DNA from: Candidatus Saccharimonadales bacterium
Lineage (GTDB): Bacteria > Patescibacteriota > Saccharimonadia > Saccharimonadales > UBA4665
DNA: 64,000 nucleotides
NCBI GenBank assembly: GCA_035690865.1
Contig: DASSKE010000004.1
Span: forward strand, 67,503 to 131,502
Direction of reading: 5' to 3'
Below the pieces are notes generated by a model. The model worked only from the letters and a program-made list of their open reading frames with translations. It was not told where the DNA came from and ran no database searches. The number at the start of each line of letters is the position of its first letter. Positions within the stretch are counted from its first letter, which is position 1. Of this stretch, positions 1 through 3,758 are shown piece after piece. A program made the position numbers and the translations under genes.

Positions 1-964
<964 letters not shown>

Positions 965-965
<1 letters not shown>

Positions 966-1480
966 TGGCCCACCCCTTTGAGCCTACAGGCCGCCGATTT
1001 GTAGCCTCCGAAGAGGTCGTGCCCGGCCCTGCGTTGCAGGGAGGTTCAATGCTGTCTGAGTTGTGGGGTGTGTATAAGGCACTTTTGCCGGAAGAATCGT
1101 TGGGTAAGTCGGTGCTAGGCACCCGTCCTGATATGGTGAATCCCGGTTCTTTTACGAGCCTTGCAAATCTTGCTGAGTCCACTGCGGGGTATGACGATGA
1201 TGGCCGTGTCGTGAACATTAGTCGTGGCACACGGCAGGTACGGGCAGTAGCTGATGGCTTGCGTCCCTTTCTTGGTGTTGTGACCGAGGGCGAGTTATCC
1301 GATAGCTCACTTGCGCCAACGTTGCCGTCGGGCGCCTTTCGTTTGATTCTCGTTGACGAGGCACACCGCCCCGGGGAAAGCCCCCGCTACCAAGGGATCC
1401 ACGATATCCAGGGCGGCCAGAGTAATTTTCGCCTGGCAAGTTTAGATTCACGGCCCGAAGTAGGTCCAGATTGTGAGTAA
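965..1480 (+). CDS. Hypothetical 171-aa ORF exactly filling the atpD-atpC gap (coding status uncertain)
   Basis: The ATG overlaps the atpD stop (TAATG). GAGG at 954-957 lies 7 nt upstream. The stop at 1478-1480 overlaps or abuts the atpC start. Codon first positions are G-rich. No recognisable family, and Gly/Pro/Ser/Arg-rich composition. Confidence 0.4.
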
Positions 1481-1919
1481 AGATATGATGGAATTAGAAT
1501 TAGTATCACTTGACGGCGTTAAGTTTAAGGCGCAAGCCTACTCTATTGTGTTGCCAACAGCCAGCGGCGAAATTACTATTTTGCCTGGCCATGAGCCGCT
1601 TTTGAGTTTGCTGGTACCTGGTGTTATTACGATCCGCAAAAAAAAGGATGACCCAGACTACCATTTAGAGCACTACGCAACCTTTGGCGGTGTACTGGAG
1701 ATTCGCCCTGATGTAACGCGCGTATTGGTTGACGAAGCCACGCATGGCGACGAAGTAAACGAGTCCGAAGCACAAAAAGCCCACGACAAAGCGGTTGAAA
1801 TGCGTAAGGCCGCCAAGAACCAGGTTGAGCTCGAAAAAGCCCAGTCATTGGTTGACCGCCAGCGCGTTCGCCTGCAGGTGGCTGGCTTGCGCCGCAAACA
1901 CCGCGACCACCGTTCTTAA
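1473..1919 (+). CDS. atpC: F1Fo ATP synthase subunit epsilon
   Basis: MELELVSLDGVKF...ITILPGHEPLLSLL gives the N-terminal beta-sandwich signature, followed by a C-terminal helical hairpin. The position after atpD fits. The start may be GTG 1473 or ATG 1485/1488. Confidence 0.9.
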   Translation: MSKDMMELELVSLDGVKFKAQAYSIVLPTASGEITILPGHEPLLSLLVPGVITIRKKKDDPDYHLEHYATFGGVLEIRPDVTRVLVDEATHGDEVNESEAQKAHDKAVEMRKAAKNQVELEKAQSLVDRQRVRLQVAGLRRKHRDHRS

Positions 1920-2755
1920 GCGATATCTTTGACTACATGCAGCTGGAGCTTTGGAGTCCCAGCTGGTTTGGGCAACGCGAGCGCTGTTAATGCGCCATGG
2001 CGTACGGCCGATACTTGCACAAAACTTTCGGTGCCTATTTTACCCAGGTAAGTGTTCATTCTTTGATTGATTAATTCAAATTGACCAATGCCAATGCCAT
2101 AGGCTGGCTGTCCGTCGTTCCACGAACGCCGGCTATCCAGCAAATGATGCGGCGTTTGATTAACGACTACGTCGGGCGCTTCGTGGTCTGCCTCGGTAAG
2201 CGCTACACGTTTGGGCGGAACAAATAAATAGTGTGAGGCTTTGGTCATGCCGCCTTTGGCGTCATCTTCAAAAAGGTCGGCTTCTGCTATGCTATGACTA
2301 ACAATACCCTCAGTTGCTCGCCGTTGAGCACGCAAGGCAGGCATAAAACGGGTGTAATACCCCTTGTCGTCAGACATGCCGGCGTAGCCAGGGTCGATCT
2401 GTTTTGTATCAGCAAAAATCACTTCCTCGTTAGCCGTATTATGCAATATGTCGCTAATCGGTTCGGCTAATTCAAACGAAGCGCATTGTTCGTGAAACAC
2501 CATTTCTAGCCCTTGTTGGCGGCAGGCACCGATGGCCATGCCAGCCAAGACGTGGGTTTCGATACCGAGCCTGGTAAAACTGCCAGGCTTTTGTAGTTCC
2601 ATGGCGGCCGTACGGTCAATAGTTGCTCCATGTGCACCGCCGGCAATTTGGAGCCAGGGCCGCTCCCACGGCCGGTCGTCCATACATCCAACGACAAGGT
2701 TCCGTGAAGGTATGGGGGCGTAGAGTTCAGATTGTGAATATGGTGCGTGTGTCAT
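1916..2755 (-). CDS. Hypothetical protein with CxDxR...HxxC motif (distant paralog of 2886..3758)
   Basis: 279-aa ORF with motifs VVGCMDDRP, IAGGAHG and FHEQCASF. Shares ordered motifs with the divergently transcribed neighbour. Confidence 0.6.
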   Translation of the reverse strand: MTHAPYSQSELYAPIPSRNLVVGCMDDRPWERPWLQIAGGAHGATIDRTAAMELQKPGSFTRLGIETHVLAGMAIGACRQQGLEMVFHEQCASFELAEPISDILHNTANEEVIFADTKQIDPGYAGMSDDKGYYTRFMPALRAQRRATEGIVSHSIAEADLFEDDAKGGMTKASHYLFVPPKRVALTEADHEAPDVVVNQTPHHLLDSRRSWNDGQPAYGIGIGQFELINQRMNTYLGKIGTESFVQVSAVRHGALTALALPKPAGTPKLQLHVVKDIA

Positions 2756-2885: not shown

Positions 2886-3758
2886 ATGACTTTGCAGTAT
2901 ACAAAAATCGCTGATGGGTTAGGTTTTGGCGATGGCGCGATATCAGGTGCATATCTGGCGGATGGCAGCGTTCAGCAACTCGAAGCGCTCTTGAATAGTG
3001 ATGATCTGCTGGTGCCGGTTGTGGCGCCCGCCGGTAAGCCAATGGATGATGGCTGTGGCGACGGCCGCCCGGTGACGGTGGTGCCCGCCACTGGACTACG
3101 CCAGCGGCCAAAGGTATTTGGCGGCGGTGCATGTATGGCTGTAGCGGCCATGATTGCCACCGGGCAGGCTGCAAGCCAAGCACTCCCCACTCTTTTTGAT
3201 AGAGCCATCCAAACGTTACAAGAAGCTGGCTTGTTCTTTGGCGGTCATACCGATGACGCTGCTGAAGCTCCCATGAGCGGTTGCGGCGCTATTGACCAAG
3301 CCCCACATATAATTGCAGCCTGCGTTGCCTACCGCCAGCAGATCACCCACTCGCTCGAGGCCTTAGGGGTGGACCTTACTGACATCGACGATGTATTTAC
3401 TGCCTTTGAGAAGTATCTTAAGGCCCTAACGCAAACAGAAGAGGCTTACAGTGGTCGCCAGATAATTGACATGCTCCGCCAACGAGGGGCTGAAGTTCGT
3501 CAACTTACCGGCAGGCACGCAGAGGGCTGTATTATCCTTAACACTGTCGCTGATATGGCCGTTAACCAGTCGGCTGTTCGCACTATGGACGAACAGGGCG
3601 TGCAGGCATTTACGGTGGATGTTTGGCGGCTCGACGTGTTGGCATCAGCCTTTGCTGATACGCACAAGGCATTGCTTGGCGAACTTATTTACACTCTAGG
3701 CACGGCAGCTGTTCTTACCAAGGGCGACCTTCCTGTATATGTAGTGTCTGCAGCGTAA
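2886..3758 (+). CDS. Hypothetical protein (distant paralog of 1916..2755)
   Basis: 290-aa ORF preceded by a strong SD (AAGGAGAG) 5 nt upstream. Motifs DDGCGDGRP, VFGGGAC and GGHTDD...SGCGAID appear in the same order as in the neighbour. Confidence 0.65.
   Translation: MTLQYTKIADGLGFGDGAISGAYLADGSVQQLEALLNSDDLLVPVVAPAGKPMDDGCGDGRPVTVVPATGLRQRPKVFGGGACMAVAAMIATGQAASQALPTLFDRAIQTLQEAGLFFGGHTDDAAEAPMSGCGAIDQAPHIIAACVAYRQQITHSLEALGVDLTDIDDVFTAFEKYLKALTQTEEAYSGRQIIDMLRQRGAEVRQLTGRHAEGCIILNTVADMAVNQSAVRTMDEQGVQAFTVDVWRLDVLASAFADTHKALLGELIYTLGTAAVLTKGDLPVYVVSAA

What the first reader, a model, noticed from the sequence alone, without database searches (positions are those of the whole stretch)
965..1480. 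Gene-sized insertion exactly filling the atpD-atpC junction
Seen in sequence:
- atpD and atpC are normally adjacent. Here 516 nt lie between them and are occupied end to end by a single ORF.
- Its ATG overlaps the atpD stop (TAATG), with GAGG 7 nt upstream.
- Its stop (1478-1480) overlaps or abuts the atpC start (GTG 1473 / ATG 1485).
- Codon first positions are G-rich, which is coding-like.
- The product is Gly/Pro/Ser/Arg-rich, unlike its neighbours, and both antisense frames are also fairly open, which would fit GC-rich structured RNA.

It is therefore either an undescribed, translationally coupled ATP-synthase-associated protein or a large structured RNA or insertion inside the operon.
Basis: partly seen in the sequence, partly recalled or inferred. 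Interest (0 to 1): 0.6.

Follow-up and report, generated by a model that had tools for sequence, protein, structure and literature searches.

The report
Fast-evolving orphan gene between atpD and atpC
A real but rapidly changing, acidic and apparently unstructured 171-aa protein gene sits exactly between the beta and epsilon genes of the ATP synthase operon of a soil Saccharibacteria (TM7) bacterium. It is one example of a clade-wide habit of lodging variable small genes in the joints between the F1 subunit genes.

Summary
A 171-codon ORF (965-1480) fills the atpD-atpC gap, starts in a TAATG overlap with the atpD stop, and ends 4 nt before the atpC ATG (1485).

It is a protein-coding gene, not a structured RNA or a recent insertion:
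- dN/dS against a 66%-identical orthologue is 0.20 (core 0.06-0.08).
- Internal indels are in threes.
- The C-terminal GPDCE varies only synonymously.
- RNA folding is no better than shuffles (z = -0.52), and Rfam finds nothing.

The family has no Pfam, NCBIfam or PDB relative and no confident AlphaFold fold. A search of 1.84 billion representative proteins found four proteins. Every member whose locus I could read sits in this same slot.

Among close Saccharimonadales loci, 19 of 30 carry a 108-942 nt atpD|atpC insert. Each is filled by same-strand coupled ORFs that are acidic, disorder-rich and mostly unalignable; other relatives have none. Large inserts occur only at the three F1 junctions (A|G, G|D, D|C). 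This genome has a second one, 77 aa, at atpG|atpD.

Best reading: a dispensable, lineage-restricted accessory gene expressed by translational relay. A role on F1 is possible but unshown.

The parts
3..965 (+). 3' part of atpD (F1 beta subunit); the window starts inside the gene. Stop TAA at 963-965.
   Evidence: Pfam ATP-synt_ab E 4.5e-70 plus the C-terminal domain. The full gene is C4:67076-68467 in the genome.
954..957 (+). GAGG Shine-Dalgarno-like motif inside the atpD 3' end, 7 nt before the slot ORF's ATG. In relatives without an insert, the same motif precedes atpC.
   Evidence: Sequence; junction alignments.
963..967 (+). TAATG stop/start overlap between atpD and the slot ORF. In insert-free relatives the same TAATG joins atpD directly to atpC.
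   Evidence: G007 and G001 have TAATG with atpC. In some searches, ORFs starting at offset +0 were seen in 10 or more genomes.
965..1480 (+). Slot ORF ('ORF X'): 171 aa, pI 4.9, net charge -8, no known domain, no confident fold. A real protein-coding gene under purifying selection.
   Evidence: ORF. dN/dS 0.20 vs L042. No Pfam, NCBIfam or PDB match. AF2 pLDDT 39 and 49. Only 4 hits among 1.84e9 representatives.
1124..1285 (+). Most conserved core (residues 54-107: RPDM..PGSFT.LA.LAES.AGYDDDGRVVNISRGTRQVRAVAD..RPFLGVVT). Predicted helices at about 62-72 and 89-98.
   Evidence: dN/dS 0.06-0.08 for alignment columns 60-110. Many synonymous-only changes are visible. Helices.
1073..1076 (+). Site (TATA) where the near-identical root-metagenome contig L043 lacks 2 nt. 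This splits the ORF into 37 aa plus a 136-aa piece that restarts at an overlapping GTG.
1337..1366 (+). FRLILVDEAH: a DEAH-box-like motif that gives a sub-threshold ResIII hit. Probably a chance resemblance.
   Evidence: Pfam ResIII E 0.047 and 0.036, 14 bits against a cutoff of 22.5. The motif is absent from P0003 and P0005.
1451..1480 (+). C-terminal motif RPEVGPDCE plus the stop. GPDCE is invariant in all five family members, conserved as a peptide.
   Evidence: Alignment A2. Codons differ only synonymously: GGT/GGA, CCA/CCG, TGT/TGC, GAG/GAA.
1485..1919 (+). atpC (F1 epsilon subunit). Start ATG 1485 (or 1488), 4 nt after the slot ORF's stop.
   Evidence: TIGR01216 E 2.2e-28 and PF02823. 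Start defined by alignment to relatives.

Best explanation
ORF 965-1480 is a genuine, lineage-restricted accessory gene occupying a 'slot' between atpD and atpC in a soil or rhizosphere Saccharimonadales (Candidatus Saccharibacteria, TM7) genome.

Shown:
- It encodes a 171-aa acidic protein with no known domain and no confident predicted fold.
- Its amino-acid sequence is under purifying selection, but it evolves more than 10 times faster than its neighbours.
- Its homologues are found in only a few related lineages, and always in this same slot.
- It is one case of a clade-wide pattern. The three F1 gene junctions (atpA|atpG, atpG|atpD, atpD|atpC) hold variable, acidic, disorder-rich ORFs. 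Each starts at or within a few nt of the upstream stop and ends at or within a few nt of the downstream start.

Inferred mechanism of expression:
- This is a translational relay by termination-reinitiation.
- Ribosomes finishing atpD at UAA restart on the overlapping AUG (UAAUG), helped by the GAGG inside atpD.
- Ribosomes finishing the slot ORF restart 4 nt downstream on the atpC AUG.
- The insert therefore has to stay open and in register for epsilon to be made. It is produced together with F1 subunits.

Inferred, weakest step:
- The product acts through short conserved motifs (the RPDM...GYDDDG core and the C-terminal RPDxGPDCE) as a dispensable modulator or partner of the F1 sector.
- It is not a core subunit.
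For: Coding:
- dN/dS 0.20 overall and 0.06-0.08 in the core, against 0.006 (atpD) and about 0.02 (atpC) at dS about 1.
- Differences by codon position are 40/42/82, and the indels inside the ORF are in multiples of 3.
- GPDCE varies only synonymously across 5 members.
- Open frame: 8 of 2000 shuffles reach the observed run.

Lineage restriction and fixed position:
- No hit in 60 relatives.
- 2 hits in 5.8e9 proteins and 4 hits in 1.84e9 representatives.
- All are located between atpD and atpC.

Native DNA:
- GC3 0.55, equal to the neighbours.
- No paralogue and no flanking repeats.

Same transcription unit:
- No plus-strand terminator-like site was found between atpD and atpC.

Clade-wide slot:
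- 19 of 30 close loci have 108-942 nt inserts, with 0.80-1.00 coverage by same-strand coupled ORFs.
- The ORFs are acidic and rich in disorder-promoting residues.
- Large inserts occur only at the A|G, G|D and D|C junctions. E|F, F|H and H|A never exceed 38 nt where they could be measured.
- This genome has a second slot ORF at atpG|atpD, with dN/dS 0.17.
- In this genome, the two atp slot ORFs are the only doubly coupled ORFs that are both acidic and disorder-rich.

Coupling precedent:
- 13 of 14 overlapping gene pairs tested were strictly coupled (Huber et al. 2019, PMC6728339).
Against:
- The gene is dispensable. Close relatives (G007, G001, G005) have no insert.
- A near-identical strain contig carries a 2-nt frameshift in the ORF.
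- Sister pairs at similar flank divergence (L044/L045, L066/L067) have unalignable slot ORFs. Product constraint is therefore weak or episodic across the clade.
- Nothing links the protein physically to F1. There is no fold (pLDDT 39-49) and no similarity to known ATP-synthase regulators.
- dS is near saturation (about 1-1.4), so the dN/dS values are approximate.
- The 3' junction is a 4-nt spacer, not an overlap.
Confidence: 0.7

Rival explanations
1. Relay or spacer ORF. DNA that became lodged between atpD and atpC is kept open only because ribosomes must traverse it to reach atpC. The peptide itself is an incidental, largely functionless by-product, possibly a proto-gene.
For: - Slot ORFs of sister genomes are unalignable, although the flanks differ only at dS about 0.9.
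- Most slot ORFs are singletons.
- Inserts are absent in many relatives.
- A frameshifted copy exists in a near-identical strain, with a restart codon overlapping the new stop.
- No fold.
- Frames are open far beyond chance in all inserts.
Against: - dN/dS is 0.20 for this ORF, with a 50-codon core at 0.06-0.08.
- Independent slot ORFs give 0.18 and 0.17.
- GPDCE is invariant with only synonymous codon changes in five lineages.
- A frame kept open only for ribosome transit would not constrain amino-acid identity.
Confidence: 0.2
2. A large structured RNA (riboregulator, ribozyme or intron-like element) that merely happens to be open in one frame.
For: GC is higher than the genome (0.57 vs 0.50). 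Antisense frames are also fairly open.
Against: - Minimum free energy is no better than dinucleotide shuffles: z = -0.52, and 31 of 100 shuffles fold at least as well.
- No Rfam match at E <= 1.
- The substitution pattern is codon-periodic (40/42/82) with 3n indels.
- The excess GC sits at codon position 2, so it reflects amino-acid composition.
Confidence: 0.02
3. A recent foreign insertion, mobile-element remnant, or degenerate fragment of an SF2/ResIII helicase gene (DEAH-like motif LILVDEAH).
For: - Weak ResIII hits on the DEAH-like motif in two orthologues: E 0.047 and 0.036.
- The insert is absent from several same-genus species.
- In G043 the same junction holds a 3.8-kb block of ordinary genes, so DNA can land there.
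Against: - The hits are below Pfam's cutoff (14 vs 22.5 bits) and cover one short motif that P0003 and P0005 lack.
- No Walker A motif is present.
- No paralogue or source sequence exists in the genome.
- No terminal direct or inverted repeats lie at the insert boundaries.
- GC3 equals the neighbours.
- The family is inherited in place across at least five diverged lineages.
Confidence: 0.04

Closest known systems
Termination-reinitiation (TeRe) coupled overlapping gene pairs (ATGA / TGATG-type; Huber et al. 2019, PMC6728339)
   Same: - Co-directed genes with a stop/start overlap (TAATG at atpD|ORF).
- An SD-like GAGG lies inside the upstream gene.
- ATGA or TAATG overlaps occur at both ends of many slot ORFs in relatives.
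   Different: - Here the coupled element is an extra, fast-evolving ORF wedged between two subunits of one enzyme, forming a two-step relay.
- The 3' junction in this genome is a 4-nt spacer, not an overlap.
- Coupling was not measured.
Small, partly disordered F1 inhibitor proteins: mitochondrial IF1, the alphaproteobacterial zeta subunit (DUF1476), cyanobacterial AtpTheta (from general knowledge)
   Same: A small, soluble protein, apparently largely unstructured and lineage-restricted, that would be made alongside F1. This is a plausible analogy for an accessory brake or modulator.
   Different: - No sequence similarity to anything in Pfam at E <= 1.
- From general knowledge, the genes for those inhibitors are not described between atpD and atpC.
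- No binding or inhibition has been shown.
- This protein is absent from close relatives.
Operon-encoded ATP synthase accessory genes: AtpI/AtpZ, and AtpQ/AtpR of N-type operons (from general knowledge)
   Same: A non-subunit gene embedded in an atp operon.
   Different: - From general knowledge, those are small membrane proteins encoded at the operon's 5' end, and they form conserved families.
- This protein is soluble and acidic, sits between F1 genes, and has only a handful of homologues.
Taxonomically restricted (orphan) genes in variable slots between conserved syntenic genes; phage 'morons' (from general knowledge)
   Same: - Fixed position with hypervariable content.
- Presence and absence vary among close relatives.
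- No homologues were found beyond a few related lineages.
   Different: - The slot lies inside an essential, translationally coupled operon for an enzyme complex.
- The inserts have no promoter or terminator of their own.
- The inserts share a composition (acidic, disorder-rich) despite having no sequence similarity.

Membership tests
Core F1Fo ATP synthase subunits (alpha, beta, gamma, delta, epsilon, a, b, c) | Sequence membership in a subunit family (Pfam or NCBIfam model above cutoff) | tested here: not met
   No Pfam or NCBIfam family passes for the ORF. The only Pfam line is ResIII at E 0.047, below cutoff. All eight canonical subunit genes are present separately in the operon.
Core F1Fo ATP synthase subunits (alpha, beta, gamma, delta, epsilon, a, b, c) | Conserved presence wherever the enzyme is present | tested here: not met
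   atpD and atpC are directly joined (TAATG, or a gap of 23 nt or less) in G007, G001, G005 and G010, and in 11 of 30 close loci.
Known ATP synthase regulators and accessory proteins (IF1, zeta/DUF1476, AtpI, AtpZ and others represented in Pfam, NCBIfam or PDB) | Detectable sequence similarity to the family model or to a solved structure | tested here: not met
   Pfam at E <= 1 for three members, NCBIfam and a PDB profile search at E <= 10: none. AtpTheta may not be represented in these libraries.
Known ATP synthase regulators and accessory proteins (IF1, zeta/DUF1476, AtpI, AtpZ and others represented in Pfam, NCBIfam or PDB) | Binding to F1, or inhibition of ATP hydrolysis | not testable with these tools
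   Needs biochemistry or a complex structure prediction. Only single-chain AF2 was available, and it gave pLDDT 39-49.
TeRe-coupled overlapping gene pairs (Huber et al. 2019) | Co-directed genes whose stop and start codons overlap (ATGA / TGATG-type) | tested here: met
   The 5' junction is TAATG at 963-967. The 3' junction is a 4-nt spacer here, but an ATGA or TAATG overlap in many relatives' slot ORFs.
TeRe-coupled overlapping gene pairs (Huber et al. 2019) | Downstream translation depends on upstream translation | not testable with these tools
   Requires reporter assays or ribosome profiling.
Taxonomically restricted (orphan) gene | A real coding gene with homologues only in a narrow lineage | tested here: met
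   dN/dS 0.20. 0 of 60 relatives. 4 hits in 1.84e9 representatives, all in related contigs at the same slot.
Intrinsically disordered protein | Lack of a stable fold; disorder-promoting composition | tested here: inconclusive
   pLDDT 39 and 49, pTM 0.16, but with only 3-5 sequences in the alignment. The disorder-promoting fraction is 0.63, against a genome median of 0.55 and a 95th percentile of 0.61. Three short helices are predicted consistently.
SF2 / ResIII helicase (fragment) | Pfam ResIII above the gathering score; Walker A plus DEAH motifs | tested here: not met
   14.1 and 14.4 bits against a cutoff of 22.5. There is no GxGKT motif, and the DEAH-like motif is missing in P0003 and P0005.
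Rfam structured RNA | Covariance-model match, or thermodynamic stability beyond shuffles | tested here: not met
   No Rfam match at E <= 1. z = -0.52.

The most novel reading that the evidence does not exclude
The three F1 gene junctions of Saccharimonadales atp operons are dedicated positions for a hyper-diverse class of small acidic, largely disordered proteins.
- These proteins would be co-translated with alpha, gamma, beta and epsilon, and would dock on the F1 head or on the basic C-terminal tail of epsilon through short linear motifs. Here the motifs would be the RPDM...GYDDDG core and the C-terminal RPDxGPDCE.
- They would tune assembly or brake ATP hydrolysis in a lineage- or niche-specific way.
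- They would be functional analogues of IF1, zeta or AtpTheta that evolve too fast to be recognised as one family.
Probability: 0.2. Interest if true: 0.8.

Novelty: new variant of a known kind. Interest (0 to 1): 0.55.

Why it matters
From general knowledge, the F1Fo operon is among the most conserved gene arrangements in bacteria, and atpD-atpC adjacency is nearly universal. In a whole clade of ultra-small, genome-reduced episymbionts, the three F1 junctions nonetheless carry real, selected, very fast-evolving protein genes. I found no description of this in the searchable literature.

If the products act on F1, they would be a new and diverse class of ATP synthase modulators. That would matter in organisms whose energy metabolism is poorly understood.

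If they do not act on F1, the slots are a natural system for studying two things. One is how obligatory translational coupling keeps inserted DNA open and expressed. The other is how that may nurse new genes.

For annotation, these ORFs should be called as genes rather than left as intergenic space.

Tried and rejected
1. Known families. Pfam, NCBIfam and a PDB profile search of the ORF and its homologues gave nothing above threshold. The sub-threshold ResIII/DEAH resemblance was considered and rejected, because the motif is not conserved in the family and there is no Walker A.
2. Structured RNA. Rfam and fold z-score were both negative.
3. Mobile element or duplication origin. There is no paralogue or source sequence in the genome and no boundary repeats.
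4. More family members. The search for related loci with the family alignment found none in genome contigs or metagenome contigs.
5. Structure. Two AF2 runs with 3 and 5 sequences gave pLDDT 39 and 49. No fold search was attempted because the models are not usable.
6. Unifying all slot ORFs into one family. phmmer and blastp all-vs-all gave only small clusters. Neither common ancestry nor independent origin could be established. A faint shared PD[MV]xxG[FL] motif between L044 and family A is suggestive only.
7. Sequencing reads.
8. Literature. Four searches found no prior description.

Full report
**Observation.** The window opens inside atpD (Pfam ATP-synt_ab, E 4.5e-70), which ends with TAA at 963-965. 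A 171-codon ORF starts at ATG 965-967, giving a TAATG overlap, with GAGG at 954-957. It ends with TAA at 1478-1480. atpC (TIGR01216, E 2.2e-28) follows. Alignment with relatives places the atpC start at ATG 1485/1488, not at GTG 1473. That GTG is destroyed by a synonymous TGT->TGC change in three family members. The composition claims hold: codon position 1 is 41% G, the same as the neighbours, and Gly+Pro+Ser+Arg make up 37% against 22-25%. The antisense frames are fairly open. Only 8 of 2000 shuffles of the insert give an equally long open run.

**Organism and context.** The window is C4:67503-131502 of a 1.19-Mb, 5-contig genome that is 98.6% complete. Relatives found through atpC are titled Candidatus Saccharibacteria or Saccharimonadales, mostly soil and rhizosphere MAGs. 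The operon is atpB-E-F-H-A-G-[77-aa ORF]-D-[171-aa ORF]-C. No plus-strand terminator-like site separates the ORF from its neighbours.

**It is a protein-coding gene.**
- The database of 5.8e9 proteins holds two homologues. One (P0002, 172 aa, 66% identical) lies on a contig with atpD-ORF-atpC (L042).
- Against it, indels inside the ORF are multiples of three, and differences by codon position are 40/42/82.
- NG86 dN/dS is 0.20 for the ORF. It is 0.06-0.08 in the core, RPDM...GYDDDGRVVNISRGTRQVRAVAD...RPFLGVVT.
- The neighbours give 0.006 (atpD) and about 0.02 (atpC), at dS about 1.
- The C-terminal GPDCE is invariant in five members, while its codons vary synonymously. The constraint is therefore on the peptide, not only on an atpC ribosome-binding site.
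- The RNA alternative fails. There is no Rfam hit at E <= 1, and the fold z-score is -0.52.
- The foreign or mobile-DNA alternative fails. GC3 is 0.55, equal to the neighbours, and the GC excess sits at codon position 2. There is no paralogue or source sequence in the genome and no boundary repeats.

**What the protein looks like.** It has no Pfam, NCBIfam or PDB relative. A sub-threshold ResIII hit rests on a DEAH-like 'LILVDEAH' motif that other members lack, so I treat it as chance. AlphaFold2 with 3 and then 5 sequences gives pLDDT 39 and 49 with pTM 0.16. Three short helices recur, at roughly residues 30-39, 62-72 and 89-98. The protein is acidic (pI 4.9, net charge -8). Its fraction of disorder-promoting residues is 0.63, against a genome 95th percentile of 0.61.

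**A tiny, position-bound family.**
- tblastn finds the ORF in none of 60 relatives.
- An exhaustive HMMER search of 1.84e9 representatives finds four proteins.
- These are the near-identical strain P0001, G004's ORF (P0003), P0004 and P0005.
- All whose loci I could read are encoded between atpD and atpC.
- The five-member alignment shows large indels. P0003 and P0005 carry an extra 4-Cys N-terminal segment.

**The clade-wide slot.**
- In insert-free relatives, atpD and atpC overlap as TAATG (G007, G001).
- Among 30 close Saccharimonadales loci, 19 carry inserts of 108-942 nt.
- One or two same-strand ORFs of 36-271 aa cover 99-100% of each insert (80% in one).
- These ORFs start 0-5 nt from the atpD stop and end -8 to +10 nt from the atpC start, most often as ATGA or TAATG overlaps.
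- Distant Patescibacteria and Gammaproteobacteria mostly have gaps under 50 nt. Their few larger gaps are AT-rich, and most have no ORF.
- The slot ORFs fall into a few small homology clusters and many singletons.
- Nearly all are acidic (pI 4-5.5, net charge -5 to -25) and disorder-rich.
- An independent cluster also shows purifying selection: L055 vs L059, dN/dS 0.18.
- Turnover is uneven. Sisters L044/L045 and L066/L067, with flank dS about 0.9, have unalignable ORFs. Homology stops at the atpD stop and resumes at the atpC ATG.
- At similar dS, the window and L042 keep 66% identity.

**Junction specificity.** In 21 operons the E|F, F|H and H|A junctions never exceed 38 nt wherever they could be measured. 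Inserts over 200 nt occur only at the three F1 junctions.

| Junction | Genomes with insert >200 nt |
|---|---|
| A\|G | 6 of 18 |
| G\|D | 13 of 19 |
| D\|C | 11 of 21 |

This genome's G|D junction holds a 77-aa acidic ORF with TAATG at both ends. It is conserved with L146 at dN/dS 0.17. A crude genome-wide scan finds 42 doubly coupled ORFs of 40-300 aa. Judged by their N-terminal sequences, most look like ordinary proteins, and only the two atp slot ORFs combine acidity with disorder-rich composition.

**Mechanism.** Best supported is expression by translational relay.
- Termination at the atpD UAA is followed by reinitiation at the overlapping AUG.
- Termination at 1480 is followed by reinitiation 4 nt downstream at the atpC AUG.
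- Such stop/start overlaps were strictly coupled in 13 of 14 pairs tested (Huber et al. 2019, PMC6728339).
- This explains why every insert stays open and in register.

The amino-acid-level constraint shows that the product matters in this lineage. The gene is nonetheless dispensable. Close relatives lack it, and a near-identical contig (L043) has a 2-nt deletion splitting it into 37 + 136 aa, with an overlapping GTG restart. An action on F1 is only inferred, from position and co-translation.

**Earlier scan notes.** Notes on other Saccharibacteria genomes describe the same pattern. I treated them as leads. In this genome and its relatives I reproduced the junction specificity, the acidity and the fast turnover independently. 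I did not see wedge ORFs in ribosomal-protein operons of this genome.

**Limits.** dS is near saturation. There are few orthologues.

Noticed in passing
Genome C4:66843-67076 (just upstream of the window; window coordinates about -660 to -427): A second slot ORF of 77 aa (pI 4.7, ends ...NENGEQQ) exactly fills the atpG|atpD junction, with TAATG overlaps at both ends. It is conserved with a 77-aa ORF in L146 (883-1116) at dN/dS 0.17.
   Followed up: partly
L043 (JGI 3300003323, root metagenome), positions 1-225 vs 226-2564; window 519-743 vs 744 onward: Sharp mosaic. The contig is only 69-72% identical to the window up to window position 743 inside atpD, then 95-99% identical. This is either recombination inside atpD or a chimeric assembly. 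The same contig has the 2-nt deletion in the slot ORF.
   Followed up: partly
G006 insert (L127 / L008; 685 nt between atpD and atpC): The insert holds two unrelated ~95-aa ORFs, separated by a degenerate copy of the atpC 5' end (MIELASIDGVKPKAKTCSILLPSA...). This suggests that slot content can be added by duplication or recombination, with the atpC 5' end acting as a homology arm.
   Followed up: no
L137 (G043:C10:22600-27680): Here atpD and atpC are 3.8 kb apart. Between them lie a same-strand Crp-family regulator and an opposite-strand block with an unknown 308-aa protein, a PAS histidine kinase and a response regulator. The operon is broken at this junction in that genome.
   Followed up: partly
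P0003 (L045 661-1251) and P0005 (L144 2501-3106): Two family members carry an extra N-terminal segment with four cysteines (CPR[YF]xxxC...C-x4-C), reminiscent of a small zinc-binding knuckle. The window's protein lacks it.
   Followed up: no
window 1916-2755 (-) and 2886-3758 (+): Downstream of atpC lie a 279-aa ORF with no domain hit and a divergently transcribed 290-aa ORF that hits the cadmium carbonic anhydrase repeat (PF18484, E 2e-9). This pair was already flagged by another first-stage note (e1-2984732). Orthologues of the pair follow atpC in L043 and L144.
   Followed up: no
window 1473-1919; atpC C-terminus: Epsilon has a strongly basic C-terminal tail (...QRVRLQVAGLRRKHRDHRS). It is a conceivable electrostatic partner for the acidic slot proteins. 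This is pure speculation and was not tested.
   Followed up: no
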